A stretch of DNA of 61,498 nucleotides from Candidatus Woesearchaeota archaeon (GTDB lineage Archaea > Nanobdellota > Nanobdellia > SCGC-AAA011-G17 > GW2011-AR18): NCBI GenBank assembly GCA_016179945.1, contig JACPCE010000004.1, forward strand, positions 1-61,498, written 5' to 3'. This document shows, piece after piece, positions 27,304 to 32,634 of this stretch. The position numbers and the translations under genes are program-made. The notes under the pieces are model-generated. The model did not search any database. It was given only the letters and a program-made list of their open reading frames with translations, and was not told where the DNA came from. Positions within the stretch are counted from its first letter, which is position 1. Every line of letters starts with the position of its first letter.

Positions 27304-28219
27304 TTTTTTATCAATATTAACAACAACCTTTAAATATGAATTCTATTTCCATCTAACTAGTTCATGCATGAAGAAGAGTTATTAGTACTTTTCTAATGTA
27401 ATTATGTGTACTTAATAATTTACATTTTAAGTACGAGAGAGCAAAACCAATAGAACGTAGTGATCTCTATATAAAATTGCGACAATATAAATCCCATTGA
27501 TCCTGTGGGAGATTGCTGCTATTGGGATCCGACTAAGCCATGCAAGTCATAGGGGTAGCAATACCACTGGCATAAGGCTCAGTAACACGTCGATAATTTG
27601 CCCTTAGGTCTGGGAAAACCTCGGGAAACTGAGGCTAAACCTAGATAAGAAAAAGATACTGGAATGTTTTTTTTCTAAAAGGCAACGCCTAAGGATAAGT
27701 CGGCGGCTGATTAGGTTGTTGGTGAGGTAATGGCTCACCAAGCCTAGGATCAGTAGGGGGGATGAGAGTCCTAGCCCCGAGAAGGGCACTGAGATACTGG
27801 CCCTAGCCCTAAGGGGTGCAGCAGGCGCGAAAACTCTGCAATGCACGAAAGTGTGACAGGGGGATCCCAAGTGCTTTGTCTTCGGATAAAGCTTTTATTA
27901 AGTCTAAATAGCTTGGTGAATAAGTGGTGGGTAAGACGGGTGCCAGCCGCCGCGGTAACACCCGCGCCACTAGTGGCAATCACTTTTATTGGGTCTAAAG
28001 CGTCCGTAGCCGGTTTAATAAGTCTCTTGTGAAATTGTTGGGCTTAACCTAACAACGTGCAAGAGAAACTATTAGACTTGAGACTGGGAGGAGGTAGAAG
28101 TATTCTAAGGGTAGCGGTAAAATGTTATAATCCTTGGAGGACTACCAGTGGCGGAGGCGTCTACCTAGAACAGGTCTGACGGTGAGGGACGAAGGCTAGG
28201 GGAGCAAAACGGATTAGAT

Positions 28220-28330
28220 ACAAGAAATTTTCTGAGAGTAAATTTCTGTACAGGCAAGTAAAATTGATCAATAAAAAACTACTTTATTTGTTAAGATGCA
28301 GAAATTAATATGGAAATTTGCTTGCTAAGT
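28220..28330 (+). other. 16S rRNA BHB intron 1 (111 nt, ~E. coli 793/794)
   Basis: Central helix TTAG/CTAA, bulges AT^A and GT^A, inner helix CAAG/CTTG; splicing restores GGATTAGATACCCGAGTAGTCC. Confidence 0.9.
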
Positions 28331-28614
28331 ACCCGAGTAGTCCTAGCAGTAAACTCTGTGAGCTATGTGTTGCACAATCTTAGTGATTGTGCAGTGCCTA
28401 AGCGAAGGTGTTAAGCTCACCACCTGGGAAGTACAGTCGCAAGACCGAAACTTAAAGGAATTGGCGGGGGCTCACTACAAGGGGTGAAGAGTGCGGTTCA
28501 ATTGGATTCCACGCCGGAAATCTCACCAGGGGCGACGGCAATATGAAGGTCAGATTAAAGGTTTTACCTAATGCGCCGAGAGGTGGTGCATGGCCGACGC
28601 CAGCTCGTGCCGTG

Positions 28615-28672
28615 AAATTCCGTTGTAATATTCCAATGAATCGATCAATATAGTTACAACTTGATTCGGTAA
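28615..28672 (+). other. 16S rRNA BHB intron 2 (58 nt, ~E. coli 1079/1080)
   Basis: Central helix GCCG/CGGT, bulges TG^A and AA^A, inner AATT/GATT and GTTGTAA/TTACAAC; splicing restores GCCGTGAGGTGTC. Confidence 0.9.
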
Positions 28673-29181
28673 AGGTGTCACGTTAAGTCGTGCAACGAGC
28701 AAGACCCATATCCGCTTTTACCAGCAGGTACTATGGTACGACTGGGTACAATGCGGAGACTGCCTCCGTAAGGAGGAGGAAGGCGTGGGCAACGTTAGGT
28801 CCGTATGCCCCGAATCTCCTGGGCTACACGCGCTCTGCAATGGTGGAGACAATGGGATGCAACTCCGAAAGGAGAAGCAAATCCTCGAAATTCCATCTTA
28901 GTCTGGATTGAGGGTTGTAATTCACCCTCATGAAACCGGAATCCCTAGTAATCGGGCTTCATTACGGCCCGGTGAATAACGTCCCTGAGCCTTGCACACA
29001 CTGCCCGTCAAACCAACCGAGCATGGCTTAGATGAGATATAGTTTTTTGATTATATCGAATCTGAGTTAAGTAAGGTGGGTTAAGTCGTCACAAGGTATC
29101 CGTAGGGGAACCTGCGGATGGATCACCTCCTTTTTATGATCTTAAACTACTTCTATTGGTGCTCATATTTTATATTCAAAT

Positions 29182-29337
29182 GGGCTCGTAGCTCAGCCCG
29201 GTAGAGCATCTCCCTTGCATAAAACTTTTTGGGAAAAAGTTTTTTCAAAATGTGATCAAGGTAGGAGGGGGCCGTGGGTTCGAAAATAACAATGGGTTTA
29301 TTACAAATCCTTGTATCGAAGAGTCCCACCGAGTCCA
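29182..29337 (+). tRNA. trnA: tRNA-Ala(TGC) in the ITS, with introns at 37/38 (29220-29262) and in the T-loop (~29285-29323)
   Basis: Acceptor GGGCTCG/CGAGTCC-A with G3-U70; BHB CTTG/CAAG with GT^A bulge; T-loop intron with TTCG/CGAA helix and 4-nt loop. Confidence 0.92.
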
Positions 29338-31582
29338 TTCACACTTTTAAAAAAACTGTGATTAAAAATAAACTTTGAAAAAGTTTGAGCAAAAAAGAAA
29401 TTACACATCATATTAACCAATTCATAGGTTACAAGTTTTTAGGAAAAAGCTTGAGTAAAAATAAGAAATGAGGCTCGTCAACAAAAGTTACGGGTTGATC
29501 GGATTAAACATCATGTTTAACCGGTGCATAGATTCTTGTATATTCGGTCCTACTAAGCCATTAGACGGATGACTTGGCTCAGGTTAAGATGAAGAGCGTG
29601 GCAAGCAGCGATATGCTCTGGGTAGGCGCATGCAGCCATTGAACCAGAGATGCTTGAATGAGACTTCTTATCCTTCGGGATGATTAGTAATAATATATAA
29701 CGCAGGGAATTGAAGCGTCTTAGTACCTGCAGGAAAAGAAATCAATTGAGATGCCGTAAATTATCAGCGAGAGAAAGCGGTGTAGAGCAAACTGAATCCT
29801 CGTAGAAATACGTAAGGAGATGTGGGGTTATAGGACTTGTATTTAGTCTTCATTTTTATATGCCAAAACTTCTGGAAAGAAGTGCCATAGAGGGTGATAG
29901 CCCCGTAGGTGTGAAAAATAAGATGAACGAGTATCCTGAGTAGGGTTTGTTGGAAATCAAGCCTGAATTTGGGAGGCACTAACTTCCAACTCTAAATATA
30001 AACCTGAGTCCGATAGATTACGAGTACCGTGAGGGAAAGTTGAAAAGAACTCGTGGAAGAGAGTAAAAAGCTCCTGAAATCTAATGGTCATAGTATGTTA
30101 CTGCTCTAAGGAGTTGTAACGTACGTTTCGAATAACGGGCCGGGGAGTGCATTTCAGTGGCAAGGATAAGGCTATTAAGGCAATATCCGTAGGGAAACCA
30201 ATAGTTCGCAACTTGTGAGGAACAATGTATGAAAATGCTTTAAGTCACTGGAGTGTGACCCGAAACCGGGTGATCTAACCTTGGGCAAGGTGAAGCAGGG
30301 GTAAAACCTTGTGGAGGCCTGAAGAGGTTCTGTGTGCAAGCGTTCTTCTGACTTAAGGTTAGGGGTGAAAGGCCAATCGAACCCGGTGATAGCTGGTTCC
30401 TACCGAAATGGGCCGCAGTCCAGTCCTCGAGGAGATAGTTAAAGAGGTAGAGATACGGATTAGGGGTTTAGGCTTCGAAAGGAGTCGATCTCTTGTCCAA
30501 CTCCCAATGCTTTAACATCGTAGAATTGAGGAAACGGCGTTACTGGGGTAAACCTGTAATGCTAGAGGGGAACAACCCAAGACTGTAGTTAAGGTCCCTA
30601 AATATTGGTTAAGTGTTAAAGGGTGAAGGATGTTTATTACCGAATACAGTAGGGAGGTAGGCTTAGAAGCAGCCATCCTTTAAAGAAAGCGTAACAGCTC
30701 ACCCATCTAGGTGATATGCTCCTAAAATGGACGGGGCTAAACCAATTACCGATACTACAGATCGCCTTGTATAAGGTGTGTGGTAGGTAGGTATTCTATG
30801 TAGGCAGAAGCTTCTGCGTAAGCAGGAGTGGACTGCATAGAAATAAAAATCCCGGCAGTAGTAGGATCGATACAGAGTGAGACTCTCTGATACCGAAAGG
30901 GCAAGGGTTTCTTGGCCATGTAAGTCAGCCAAGAGTTAGTTGATCCTAACTTTAGAATTTTAATTGATTCAAGGGAAAGGGAAAACGGTTAATATTCCGT
31001 TACCATTCAAATACGTGCGGCAACGCAAGCTATAGGATAGACATTTCTGGCTAGGCTAGCACTTACTGTCGTGAGTGTTAATTAGGATAAATCTTGGGAG
31101 TAATGTAATGTTGAGAACAAGATTAAACTGAGAATAGCAGGCTTATGCTTGTCTAGTTTATGCCTGGAATCACTGAAAATGTCTTATAGAAGGATTTTGA
31201 ATGATCATACCCAGAACCAACACTGGTGCCCCTAGGTGAGAAGCCTAAGGTAGGAGGGAGTAATCTAGCTAAGGGAACTCGGCAAATTAGCCCCGTGCCT
31301 TTGGTGTAAGGGGTCCCTGCGTTTGTGTACTTAAGTATGCAAATACAGGGTGCAATAACAAGGGCGGTCCGACTGTTTACCAAAAACACAACCTCTCGCA
31401 AGTCCGTAAGGATTAGTACGCGAGGTGACGTCTGCCCAGTACCAGTAATTCAAACCTCTTTTCAAGGAGGCTAAGATCTGGCAAACGGCGGGAATAACTA
31501 TGATTCTCTTAAGGTAGCGAAAAGACAGTTAGTTCGTGCAATTAAAATCTGCAATAAACTTTTATAAAAAGTTTGAACAAAA
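29221..31582 (+). repeat. Dispersed ~28-nt hairpin-plus-tail repeat, 5 copies (29221-29250, 29340-29367, 29369-29394, 29432-29460, 31555-31582)
   Basis: Approximate consensus YAAACTTTT-NNN-AAAAGTTTG-ANYAAAA; all copies in the same orientation. Confidence 0.7.
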
Positions 31583-32634
31583 TATACTGTATTTCATGCG
31601 CGCAAGAGTGGAGTTATTTCTAAAGTTGGGTTTATAAAATTAATTTGGTTTGCAAATTAGTTTAGTTCATAATCAAAGAACTAACTGTTGCGCAGTACCT
31701 TGTCGTTTTAATGACGACGCGCATGAATGACGTAACGAGACCGCTACTGTCCCTAGCTAGAATCCCCCGAATACACTCTTCCGGTGCAAAGGCCGGAGTC
31801 CTCTAGTGGGAAGTAAAGACCCCGTGAAGCTTTACTGCAGTTTATCGTTGTGATGTGGGATTAGCTGTGCAGCGTAGGTAGTAGTTGTTTGATGGTTCAG
31901 ATGCAAGTTTGAACCTAGACAAAGTTGAGACACTACCCTTTTAATTCTACGTCACTAACTTTCGAAAGAAAAAACAGCGGTAGATGGACAGTTTGGCTGG
32001 GGCGGCACCCTGCTGAAAATGTATCAGTAGGGCCCAAAGGTCAGCTCAGGAGGTTTAGAAATCCTCTGTGGAGCGCAAGAGCAAAAGCTGGCTTGACTGT
32101 GTTCTGAAAAGTAAAGAACGCAGGGTGGAAACACGGGTCTAGCGAACCCTTATGCCCTTCTTGGTGGGGGCTAAGGATGACAGAAAAGCTACTCCGGGGA
32201 TAACAGAGTTGTCGCGCCTAAGAGCTCAAATCGACGGCGCGGTTTGCTACATCGACGTCGGCTCTTCCTAACCTGGCCGTGCAGAAGCGGCCAAGGGTGG
32301 GGGTGTTCACCCATTAAAAGGGATCGTGAGCTGGGTTCAAAACGTCGCGAGACAGTTTGTTCAATATCTGCTAGAGGTGTTGGTGTCTGAGAGGAAGGAT
32401 CATCTAGTACGAAAGGAACGGTGATTCGGTGCCTCTGGTGTATCAGTTGTCTGACAAGGCAGGCTGAGCAGCTACGCACCAATGGATAACAGCTGAATGC
32501 ATCTAAGCTGGAAACCAACCTCAAAAAGAGACACCTTCCTAGAGCTCTTCTAAAAGAGAAGATTGATAGGATCGGGATGTAAGTACCAAGGCAACGAGGT
32601 ATTAAGTCTGCGATTACTAATCGCTCGAGGGATA
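29546..32634 (+). rRNA. rrl: 23S rRNA, archaeal, with one intron
   Basis: GAGTACCGTGAGGGAAAG, AAGGGAACTCGGCAAA, GGGATAACAG, CATCGACGTCGGCTC, SRL AGTACGAAAGGA; ends approximate. Confidence 0.98.
31523..31695 (+). other. 23S rRNA intron (173 nt, ~E. coli 1938/1939), relaxed BHB
   Basis: 12-bp closing helix GACAGTTAGTTC/GAACTAACTGTT; splicing restores AAGGTAGCGAAATACCTTG; exact junction uncertain by a few nt. Confidence 0.82.

What the first reader, a model, noticed from the sequence alone, without database searches (positions are those of the whole stretch)
27490..32634. Linked 16S-tRNA-Ala-23S operon carrying five ORF-less BHB-type introns
Seen: two 16S introns, two tRNA-Ala introns and one 23S intron, all short hairpins with no homing endonuclease, several with relaxed motifs. 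Established: BHB rRNA introns and multi-intron tRNAs are best known in Thermoproteales, and many DPANN have unlinked rRNA genes. Inference: a broad-specificity splicing endonuclease and ongoing intron gain, possibly by reverse ligation at exposed loops.
Basis: partly seen in the sequence, partly recalled or inferred. Interest (0 to 1): 0.7.

Follow-up and report, generated by a model that had tools for sequence, protein, structure and literature searches.

The report
Five protein-spliced introns in archaeal rRNA operon
The ribosomal RNA operon of this tiny groundwater archaeon (Woesearchaeota-like) really is broken by five short introns of the known archaeal enzyme-cut kind, most of them inherited and shared with relatives, so it is a good example rather than a new phenomenon.

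Summary
The 16S gene has inserts of 111 nt (28220-28330) and 58 nt (28615-28672). The spacer tRNA-Ala(UGC) has inserts of 43 nt (37/38) and 39 nt (T-loop, 59/60). The 23S gene has one of 173 nt (31523-31695). None holds an ORF or matches a ribozyme family.

Four inserts have a 4-bp central helix between bulges; the 23S one has 3 of 4 pairs, and the T-loop one a 4-nt 3' bulge. Removing both tRNA inserts gives a clean tRNA-Ala cloverleaf.

The sites are old. The 16S-793 intron is in 13 of 240 genomes of the order (8 families). T-loop inserts occur in 38 genomes, with compensatory changes.

The genome has one splicing endonuclease gene of the M. jannaschii (alpha4) layout. It lacks the insertions seen in the A. 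pernix and N. equitans enzymes. RtcB ligase is present. So "broad-specificity enzyme" is unproven, and "ongoing gain" is only partly supported: presence varies within a genus, and a hairpin module recurs in several introns and the spacer.

RNA data could not separate splicing from intron-less relatives. The scan found similar cases before on other DNA. Known kind, apparently unlisted 16S sites, moderate interest.

The parts
27490..29131 (+). 16S rRNA gene, 1642 nt with introns and 1473 nt without
   Evidence: Rfam RF01959, 1404.9 bits, model positions 1-1478. Length after removal of the introns.
28220..28330 (+). 16S intron 1, 111 nt, after E. coli position T793 in the 790 loop (alignment-ambiguous 792-795)
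   Evidence: Absent from 9 of 14 aligned 16S genes. BHB core is Ha TTAG / Hb CTAA (4/4), bulges AT|A and GT|A, with 4 adjacent intron pairs. Numbering from E. coli rrsB.
28615..28672 (+). 16S intron 2, 58 nt, after E. coli position G1079 (or 1080)
   Evidence: Present only in G000 and G003 among 14 16S genes. Core is GCCG/CGGT (4/4), bulges TG|A and AA|A, with 4 adjacent intron pairs. The outer exon helix is weak.
29182..29337 (+). tRNA-Ala(UGC) gene in the spacer. Exons are 29182-29219, 29263-29284 and 29324-29337
   Evidence: G3:U70 pair and UGC anticodon. ARAGORN gives a 76-base cloverleaf once both inserts are removed and finds nothing in the unspliced gene. Missed.
29220..29262 (+). tRNA-Ala intron 1, 43 nt, at the canonical position 37/38
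   Evidence: Core is CTTG/CAAG (4/4), bulges CA|T and GT|A, and the anticodon stem of 5 bp serves as the outer helix. It contains the hairpin module at 29221-29254.
29285..29323 (+). tRNA-Ala intron 2, 39 nt, in the T-loop at 59/60. A strict-geometry alternative ends at 29322
   Evidence: Ha TTCG / Hb CGAA (4/4) and 5' bulge AA|A. The 3' bulge is GAGT (4 nt) if the T-loop is to be 7 nt. Strict 3-4-3 cutting would give an 8-nt loop. The same site is interrupted in 12 of 13 spacer tRNA-Ala genes.
29540..32640 (+). 23S rRNA gene, 3101 nt with the intron and 2928 nt without
   Evidence: Rfam RF02540, 2490.2 bits, model positions 1-2987. Length after removal of the intron.
31523..31695 (+). 23S intron, 173 nt, after E. 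coli position A1938
   Evidence: Absent from 11 of 13 aligned 23S genes. G038 has a 139-nt insert at the same site. Core is GCGA/GCGC (3/4) with a 12-bp intron helix. G038 has GCGA/TCGT (4/4). Numbering from E. coli rrlB.
29369..29463 (+). Two copies of a hairpin module (AAACTTT..AAAGTTTGAG, then an A-run) in the spacer, at 29369-29395 and 29431-29463
   Evidence: nhmmer with a profile of 7 copies, alignment, exact-core count against shuffles. A further copy lies inside the 23S intron at 31554-31585.
29517..29550 (+). 5' arm of the 23S processing stem. Its partner is 32630-32663
   Evidence: 34-nt inverted repeat, 88% complementary. The co-fold is a near-continuous helix without staggered bulges.
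27457..27476 (+). 5' strand of a candidate BHB-like motif in the 16S processing stem. Its partner is 29132-29150
   Evidence: Co-fold of the 16S flanks, read by hand: helix GTAGT/ACTAC, 3' bulge TTAA (4 nt), helix GATC/GATC, 5' bulge TCT. Low confidence.

Best explanation
The window carries one 16S-tRNA-Ala(UGC)-23S operon of a Woesearchaeota-like DPANN archaeon. Its primary transcript must lose five bulge-helix-bulge (BHB) introns before the RNAs can work.

Inferred mechanism: at each exon-intron pair the RNA folds into a 4-bp helix flanked by two bulges. The genome's single splicing endonuclease (EndA, alpha4 layout, on contig C11) cuts in both bulges. RtcB (contig C7) joins the exons and probably circularises the introns.

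Shown: the inserts, their boundaries, the BHB geometry, compensatory changes across relatives, and the presence of EndA and RtcB.

Inferred: that cutting and ligation happen, the exact 3' cut in the T-loop intron, and the tetrameric state of EndA.

History: the introns are mostly old and were inherited within the order, with scattered losses. A hairpin module shared by several introns and the spacer hints that some introns arose by copying of existing intron sequence.
For: 1. Inserts against intron-less homologues. The 16S inserts are in 5 of 14 and 2 of 14 aligned genes. The 23S insert is in 2 of 13. Without them the genes are 1473 and 2928 nt, within the range of most relatives (1465-1472 nt in the nine intron-less full-length 16S hits; 2907-2941 nt in the seven relatives whose 23S shows no insert of 20 nt or more).

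2. BHB cores are 4/4 in four introns and 3/4 in the 23S intron. Background is 2.3% for 4/4 and 0.06% for 4/4 plus 4 adjacent pairs.

3. Covariation. At 16S-793 the helix next to the 5' bulge changes as CAAG/CTTG, CGAG/CTCG, TGAACA/TGTTCA and CAAATAT/ATATTTG, while TTAG/CTAA stays fixed in 5 of 5. In the 38 T-loop inserts, read by eye, TTCA always faces T-GAA or T-GGA (13 of 13 with a full helix), and TTCG faces CGAA, CGGA, CGAG or TGAA.

4. Splicing both tRNA inserts restores a cloverleaf with G3:U70.

5. The sites lie in the 790 loop of 16S, in the helix 34/35 region, and next to H69-H71 of 23S. From my own knowledge these are functional core regions where an insert could not stay.

6. Enzymes. 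One PF01974+PF02778 EndA of 207 aa with Tyr, His and Lys aligned to the M. jannaschii enzyme. RtcB scores 500.9 bits.

7. No Rfam ribozyme family reaches threshold in the window or the 23S insert. No ORF of 40 aa or more lies within an insert.

8. DNA contigs of run X1 cover 29106-29728 and 31493-31739 without a difference. X1 may be the source sample, so this is not independent.
Against: No RNA evidence specific to this organism exists. In one search the join across 28614-28673 (exactly 16S intron 2) stands in all three RNA runs but also in one DNA contig of X1. Intron-less relatives therefore explain it as well as splicing does.

Two motifs depart from the strict form that alpha4 enzymes are reported to need. 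The T-loop intron has a 4-nt 3' bulge, and the 23S intron has a G/A mismatch in the central helix plus an extra A opposite the 3' bulge.

The outer exon helices of both 16S introns are weak: 0 and 1 adjacent pairs.

Local minimum-energy folds do not reproduce the BHB for 16S-793 or the 37/38 intron.

The genome is 74% complete, so a second endonuclease subunit could be unassembled. However, four 100%-complete relatives also show one gene only.
Confidence: 0.85

Rival explanations
1. The inserts are retained expansion segments or intervening sequences that stay in, or fragment, the mature rRNA. This is discussed for rRNA insertions of CPR bacteria. On this reading they are not spliced introns.
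For: There is no organism-specific RNA proof of splicing. The outer helices of the 16S motifs are weak.
Against: The inserts split the 790-loop sequence GGATTAGAT|ACCC, the helix 34/35 region and the H69-H71 region. BHB cores are conserved with compensatory changes. The same kind of insert sits in a tRNA T-loop, where retention would destroy the tRNA.
Confidence: 0.05
2. The introns are recent gains by a mobile, ORF-less intron family that copies itself between tRNA, rRNA and spacer sites. This is intron transposition as proposed for Thermoproteales, and it is the first reader's 'ongoing gain'.
For: A ~35-nt hairpin module recurs in seven places: the tRNA-Gly, tRNA-Thr and tRNA-Ala 37/38 introns, a T-loop intron on contig C26, the 23S intron, and twice in the spacer. 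Its exact core gives 3 hits against 0-1 in 20 dinucleotide shuffles. G023 has the 793 intron while G021 of the same genus lacks it. The 1079 intron is in G000 and G003 but not in G014, G021 or G004.
Against: The sites themselves are old. The 793 intron is in 8 families of the order and in family f37 outside the order. In G000, G014 and G003 its copies are 54-72% identical in an order that follows the 16S tree. One loss explains the G021+G004 gap. The nhmmer profile finds no copies beyond the seven it was built from. Similar hairpins sit in the spacers of relatives in three other families of the order (G061, G062, G140), so the module may be a functional spacer element rather than a mobile one.
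Confidence: 0.25
3. The inserts are assembly or binning artefacts, that is, chimeric joins in a metagenome-assembled genome.
For: The genome is a 27-contig, 74%-complete assembly. rRNA operons are often misassembled.
Against: Homologous inserts lie at identical sites in separately assembled relatives. The boundaries are exact to the base and restore conserved sequence. X1 DNA contigs match without a difference.
Confidence: 0.02
4. They are self-splicing group I or group II introns, or decayed remnants of them.
For: Group I introns are reported in Woesearchaeota and Pacearchaeota 23S genes at LSU 1923, 1931 and 2593 (PMC6125680, passages read). Relatives G027 and G025 have ~700-nt inserts a few bases upstream of the G000 site.
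Against: The inserts are 39-173 nt. No Rfam intron family reaches its gathering score in the window, or E of 1 or less in the 23S insert. BHB geometry is present at every junction.
Confidence: 0.02

Closest known systems
BHB introns of 16S and 23S rRNA genes in Thermoproteales, Desulfurococcales and Aigarchaeota (Jay and Inskeep 2015, PMC4496867; results section and Table 1 read)
   Same: They sit in highly conserved rRNA loops, have BHB junctions, occur as short ORF-less forms, and are patchy among relatives. Closely spaced pairs of introns also occur there, as in relative G032 with introns at 793 and 800.
   Different: The host is a mesophilic, AT-rich groundwater DPANN lineage. Sites 793 and 1079 are not among the 13 listed loci (374, 548, 722, 781, 803, 901, 908, 919, 978, 1093, 1205, 1213, 1391). 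No homing-endonuclease form was seen at these two sites in the genomes examined.
Non-canonical T-loop (59/60) tRNA introns of ARMAN-2, Ca. Micrarchaeum (Fujishima et al. 2011, PMC3239211; passages read)
   Same: The position is 59/60 in a DPANN archaeon, with both strict and relaxed BHB forms.
   Different: ARMAN-2 uses a three-unit epsilon2 enzyme with specific loops. Here there is a single alpha4-type gene without those insertions. Here the intron sits in the spacer tRNA-Ala and is conserved across an order.
alpha4 splicing endonuclease of Methanocaldococcus jannaschii (PDB 1a79)
   Same: There is a single N+C domain unit. Residues 60-207 are collinear with chain residues 25-171 with one 1-residue gap (E 3.3e-33), and Tyr, His and Lys align.
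   Different: G000 has about 35 extra N-terminal residues, acidic, with a conserved LGxxVxDLP-like motif in many relatives. A Lys is nearly invariant (28 of 29 by eye) in the short loop where crenarchaeal enzymes carry their specific loop. The substrates here include relaxed motifs.
Paralogous ('transposed') tRNA introns of Thermoproteales (Fujishima et al. 2010, as summarised in PMC4033280; passage read, original paper not seen)
   Same: Similar intron sequence occurs in different tRNA species and positions.
   Different: Here the shared part is only a ~35-nt hairpin module. It is also found in a 23S intron and in the rRNA spacer, and only seven copies were found.
Co-occurring group I and BHB introns in DPANN rRNA genes (Nawrocki, Jones and Eddy 2018, PMC6125680; passages read)
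   Same: It shows that rRNA genes of Woesearchaeota and Pacearchaeota carry introns, BHB ones included.
   Different: That paper catalogues the group I introns. The passages I read give no positions or anatomy for the BHB introns.

Membership tests
Archaeal bulge-helix-bulge (BHB) introns | An insert relative to intron-less homologues, whose removal restores the conserved mature sequence | tested here: met
   All five inserts restore consensus rRNA or tRNA sequence.
Archaeal bulge-helix-bulge (BHB) introns | Two 3-nt bulges separated by a 4-bp helix at the exon-intron junctions, with cuts after the second bulge base (rule recalled from the literature) | tested here: met
   Strict 3-4-3 core in 16S-793, 16S-1079 and tRNA 37/38. 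The T-loop intron is 3-4-4, or strict with an 8-nt T-loop. The 23S intron has 3 of 4 helix pairs. So it is met for three and relaxed for two.
Archaeal bulge-helix-bulge (BHB) introns | Pairing kept by compensatory change across homologues | tested here: met
   16S-793 in 5 genomes and 13 genomes. T-loop inserts in 38 genomes, read by eye: 27 strict, 8 with a 4-nt 3' bulge, 3 with 3/4 pairs.
Archaeal bulge-helix-bulge (BHB) introns | Splicing endonuclease and RNA ligase encoded by the host | tested here: met
   EndA at G000 C11:6360-6980. RtcB on C7.
Archaeal bulge-helix-bulge (BHB) introns | Spliced RNA and excised (circular) intron observed | tested here: inconclusive
   In one search the intron-skipping join for 16S intron 2 stands in 3 RNA runs and in 1 DNA run. 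No raw reads were available and circles are not assessable.
alpha4-type archaeal splicing endonuclease | One gene with one N-terminal and one catalytic domain, and no second subunit | tested here: met
   Exactly one PF01974 match in 36 of the 41 genomes searched; G040 has a second, 51-aa match at a contig start; four have none. One homologue at E of 1 or less in each of G000 and four 100%-complete relatives. Pfam N and C domains found.
alpha4-type archaeal splicing endonuclease | Catalytic Tyr-His-Lys triad | tested here: met
   Aligned to the 1a79 motifs (Y in RLYERG, H in KEHS, K in VRKK). Conserved in 29 of 29 relatives' sequences. Residue roles are recalled from the literature.
alpha4-type archaeal splicing endonuclease | Homotetramer assembly | not tested
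   No fold or complex job was run. Assembly is inferred from the single gene.
Broad-specificity EndA with specific loops (L1/CSL, L2/ASL, L3) | Lys-bearing insertion in the N-terminal domain (CSL/ASL) or in the C-terminal domain near the catalytic His (L3) | tested here: not met
   There is a 9-residue gap against A. pernix alpha (3p1z_B) at the CSL place and a 6-residue gap against N. equitans alpha (3iey_A) before the His. No length change occurs there in 29 relatives. ARMAN-2 was not aligned residue by residue.
Homing-endonuclease-bearing rRNA introns | LAGLIDADG (or other) endonuclease ORF inside the intron | tested here: not met
   No ORF of 40 aa or more lies inside any insert. The longest insert is 173 nt.
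Group I / group II self-splicing introns | Match to a ribozyme covariance model | tested here: not met
   None at gathering score in the window. None at E of 1 or less in 31515-31705 or 29132-29539.

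The most novel reading that the evidence does not exclude
Woesearchaeales may run a heavily intron-laden tRNA and rRNA set with a plain, loop-less alpha4 endonuclease. Evidence for the intron load: only 3 uninterrupted tRNA genes were detectable in this assembly. The substrates include relaxed junctions: 4-nt 3' bulges in 8 of 38 T-loop introns, a mismatched central helix in the 23S intron, and perhaps a 4-nt bulge in the 16S processing stem. If the enzyme cuts these, the rule that broad specificity needs the L1, L2 or L3 insertions would be incomplete, and a nearly invariant Lys in the short loop at the CSL position could be the minimal solution. 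In addition, a ~35-nt hairpin module shared by tRNA introns, a 23S intron and the spacer could be the unit by which ORF-less introns are seeded at new BHB-competent sites.
Probability: 0.3. Interest if true: 0.6.

Novelty: new member of a known kind. Interest (0 to 1): 0.4.

Why it matters
1. Annotation. ARAGORN and the Rfam tRNA model miss the spacer tRNA-Ala, and ARAGORN finds only 3 uninterrupted tRNA genes in the assembly. tRNA counts used for genome quality and codon-usage inference in this lineage are therefore unreliable.

2. Surveys. The 793 intron splits the GGATTAGATACCC primer region (the 785F/806R target, recalled), so amplicon surveys may under-count intron-bearing Woesearchaeota.

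3. Enzymology. The lineage offers a natural test of whether an alpha4 endonuclease without specific loops can process relaxed BHB motifs.

4. Evolution. Conserved sites with patchy presence, plus a shared hairpin module, give material for asking how ORF-less archaeal introns persist and spread.

Tried and rejected
1. RNA evidence. Contigs of three groundwater metatranscriptome runs (X5, X9, X11) and one DNA run (X1) were laid on 27400-32700.
- The join 28614->28673 stands in all three RNA runs but also in X1 DNA.
- Loose ends at 31696 read as an intron-less 23S junction in X9 RNA and as a different, longer intron in X1 DNA.
- The RNA contigs are short (73-144 nt) pieces of conserved rRNA that may come from relatives.
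- No depth over 29170-29523 in RNA runs is not a finding.
- Verdict: none.

2. Genome-wide tRNA census. A scan for strict BHBs gave 57,804 candidates. Splicing each and running ARAGORN gave only 14 junction-spanning calls, several redundant, which is too few for a census. ARAGORN's own intron placements were mostly not BHB-consistent. I give no count of strict against relaxed tRNA introns genome-wide.

3. Local MFE folds. They reproduce the BHB for 16S-1079 and nearly for 23S, but not for 16S-793 or tRNA 37/38. They were not used as evidence.

4. Rfam on four relatives' rRNA loci, among them the ~700-nt 23S inserts of G027 and G025: no intron family reached threshold, so their class is unresolved.

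5. RNase III (PF14622) as an alternative processor of the bulge-less 23S stem: not found in G000, which is 74% complete.

6. The supplement of PMC5829648 was searched for the loop assignment of Woesearchaeota. The text is garbled and uninformative, and Figure 7 of that paper is not held. I cannot say which loop type the authors gave this group.

7. Literature. Searches found no paper describing positions of BHB introns in DPANN rRNA genes, and no list of archaeal 23S intron sites. The 23S site 1938 could therefore not be checked against a catalogue.

8. Notes for this genome: none held.

Full report
**What is there**

Rfam finds a complete archaeal 16S rRNA at 27490-29131 and a complete 23S at 29540-32640. 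Both are longer than their models: 1642 against 1478 positions, and 3101 against 2987. ARAGORN in default mode sees no tRNA in the window. The window is contig C21 of a 782-kb, 27-contig assembly rated 74% complete. Relatives found with its EndA protein carry public titles such as Candidatus Woesearchaeota, Nanoarchaeia or Nanoarchaeota archaeon.

**The rRNA inserts**

I aligned the 16S of G000 with 13 full-length 16S genes of relatives from the same order.
- G000 has a 111-nt insert inside GGATTAGA-TACCC. It is shared by G014, G003, G038 and G032, so 5 of 14 genes carry it.
- G000 has a 58-nt insert inside GCCGTG-AGGTGT. It is shared only by G003, so 2 of 14 carry it.

Thirteen 23S genes were aligned.
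- G000 has one 173-nt insert after AAGGTAGCGAAA.
- G038 has a 139-nt insert at the same place.
- G027 and G025 have ~700-nt inserts a few bases upstream.
- G038 and G032 have further inserts elsewhere.

Against E. coli rrsB and rrlB the sites are after T793, after G1079 and after A1938. Table 1 of Jay and Inskeep 2015 lists 13 archaeal 16S intron loci (PMC4496867, section read). Neither 793 nor 1079 is among them. I found no catalogue of 23S sites to compare with.

**The spacer tRNA**

The spacer holds GGGCTCG...CGAGTCC-A with anticodon UGC and a G3:U70 pair, interrupted twice. ARAGORN finds nothing in the native sequence or after removal of the first insert only. After removal of 29285-29323 alone it finds tRNA-Ala with a 43-nt anticodon-loop intron. 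After removal of both inserts it draws a standard cloverleaf. All 13 relatives with a 16S-23S spacer have this tRNA-Ala, and 12 of the 13 have an insert in the T-loop. G023, G024, G026, G028 and G029 are wrong names here: the loci L023, L024, L026, L028 and L029 also show an insert at 37/38, three of them confirmed with BHB cores before the script stopped. L034 (G038) has an extra D-loop insert.

**BHB geometry**

I used the rule, recalled from the literature, that the cut follows the second base of each 3-nt bulge and that the bulges flank a 4-bp helix. The cores are then as follows.

| Intron | Central helix | Bulges | Adjacent helices |
|---|---|---|---|
| 16S-793 | TTAG/CTAA (4/4) | AT\|A, GT\|A | 4 intron pairs |
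| 16S-1079 | GCCG/CGGT (4/4) | TG\|A, AA\|A | 4 intron pairs |
| tRNA 37/38 | CTTG/CAAG (4/4) | CA\|T, GT\|A | anticodon stem as outer helix |
| T-loop 59/60 | TTCG/CGAA (4/4) | AA\|A, 3' bulge GAGT (4 nt) | T-stem as outer helix |
| 23S-1938 | GCGA/GCGC (3/4) | AA\|A, AG\|T | 12-bp intron helix |

Strict 3-4-3 cutting of the T-loop intron would leave an 8-nt T-loop. The 23S intron also has an extra A opposite the 3' bulge. In G038 the same 23S site has 4/4 (GCGA/TCGT).

Random position pairs in this genome give a 4/4 helix at 2.3%, and 4/4 plus four adjacent pairs at 0.06%. The outer exon helices of the two 16S introns are weak. Local MFE folds do not always choose the BHB.

**Comparative support and age**

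A pattern for the 793 intron matched 19 of the 240 species genomes of the order. Checking the flanks leaves 13 real 16S introns in 8 families, one intron-less 16S false match, and five matches outside rRNA. Adjacent intron pairing is 2-8 bp in the 13.
- G023 has the intron; by eye its first ~70 bases differ from G000's at about one place in eight. G021 of the same genus lacks it.
- A class-wide sample showed the same intron type in three genomes of family f37 outside the order. That list was truncated, with 87 rows not shown.
- On a 16S tree, G000 groups with the intron-less G021 and G004, next to the intron-bearing G003 and G014. The three copies are 54-72% identical in an order matching the tree. 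One loss is the simplest reading for 793, while 1079 needs two events.

A pattern for the tRNA 3' half matched 87 places in 77 of the 240 genomes. Thirty-eight of those places carry a T-loop insert. By eye:
- 27 have a strict 3-4-3 core.
- 8 have the 4-nt 3' bulge (G000, G004, G014, G132, G157, G162, G235, G237).
- 3 have 3 of 4 helix pairs.
- Position 57 covaries with its partner.

That pattern is not specific to tRNA-Ala, so the intron-less rows are not a denominator.

**The enzymes**

G000 has one PF01974 match, in a 207-aa ORF with both EndA domains, next to an RNase Z-like gene. Of the 41 genomes searched (G000 included), 36 show exactly one match; G040 has a second, 51-aa match at a contig start; four show none. 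Four 100%-complete relatives show one homologue at E of 1 or less.

The protein aligns with M. jannaschii EndA (1a79) over residues 60-207 with a single 1-residue gap. It lacks nine residues present in A. pernix alpha at the place of the crenarchaeal specific loop. It also lacks six Lys-rich residues present in N. equitans alpha before the catalytic His. Twenty-nine relatives show no length change there.

The literature links broad specificity to such loops, and lists bulges of 1-4 nt among relaxed motifs (PMC5829648 and PMC3239211, passages read). PMC5829648 also reports alpha4 enzymes with the L3 loop in several DPANN lineages. I could not see which type it assigns to Woesearchaeota.

RtcB is present.

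**Shared hairpin module**

Seven copies of a ~35-nt hairpin, with core AAACTTT..AAAGTTTGA followed by an A-run, were found. They lie in:
- the tRNA-Gly, tRNA-Thr and tRNA-Ala 37/38 introns;
- a T-loop intron on C26;
- the 23S intron;
- the spacer, twice.

The exact core gives 3 hits against 0-1 in 20 dinucleotide shuffles. A profile finds nothing further in the genome. It does find similar hairpins in loci of three relatives from other families of the order, one of them directly behind the tRNA 3' end. This may reflect copying of intron sequence or a functional spacer element. I could not decide between the two.

**RNA and DNA reads**

See Tried and rejected. Nothing organism-specific could be concluded.

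**Verdict**

The thing is a set of ordinary archaeal BHB introns in an unusual density, at two 16S sites that the main catalogue does not list, in a lineage where such introns have been mentioned but, in my searches, not described. Earlier notes of this scan report the same kinds of features in other DPANN genomes. The open and more interesting point is the loop-less alpha4 endonuclease facing relaxed substrates.

Noticed in passing
My BHB scan suggests a second insert near 7610-7630.
   Followed up: partly
G000 whole genome (contigs C1-C27): ARAGORN finds only 3 uninterrupted tRNA genes in 782 kb, and 12 more when one anticodon-loop intron is allowed. The Rfam tRNA model found 11, of which 8 are 96-123 nt long. 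Most tRNA genes appear interrupted or undetectable.
   Followed up: partly
G000 C7:2498-5311 (-), loci L081/L082: The RtcB match is split: profile positions 1-29 and 28-425 lie about 1.5 kb apart within one 1000-aa open frame. This looks like an intein-sized insertion in the RNA ligase gene.
   Followed up: no
window 29517-29550 with 32630-32663: The 23S processing stem is a near-continuous 34-bp helix with no staggered 3-nt bulges. No RNase III domain was found in the 74%-complete genome. How 23S is released is unclear.
   Followed up: partly
window 27457-27476 with 29132-29150: The 16S flanks can form a BHB-like motif with a 4-nt 3' bulge (TTAA), a GATC/GATC helix and a 3-nt 5' bulge. It is the same 3-4-4 shape as the T-loop intron (read by hand).
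   Followed up: partly
L012 / L098 (G032 16S) and L083 (G049 16S): G032 has two mini-introns 7 nt apart, 32 nt after position 793 and 31 nt after position 800, both with 4/4 BHB cores. G049 also seems to have a second insert right after the 793 intron.
   Followed up: partly
L013 (G021) and L014 (G004) 16S genes: The two closest 16S relatives lack about 100-110 nt that correspond to G000 16S positions ~346-484. In G004 the gap includes the GTGCCAGC...CGCGGTAA region. This is probably an assembly problem.
   Followed up: no
L039 1474-2097 (-) and relatives' EndA genes: The EndA N-terminal extension carries an acidic motif (LGxxVxDLP-like) conserved in many family members. A Lys two residues before the FQYSL strand is present in 28 of 29 sequences by eye.
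   Followed up: no
L030 (G027) and L032 (G025) 23S genes: There are ~700-nt inserts near E. coli position 1931/1932, where group I introns are reported in Woesearchaeota (PMC6125680). Rfam gave no intron-family hit at gathering score.
   Followed up: partly
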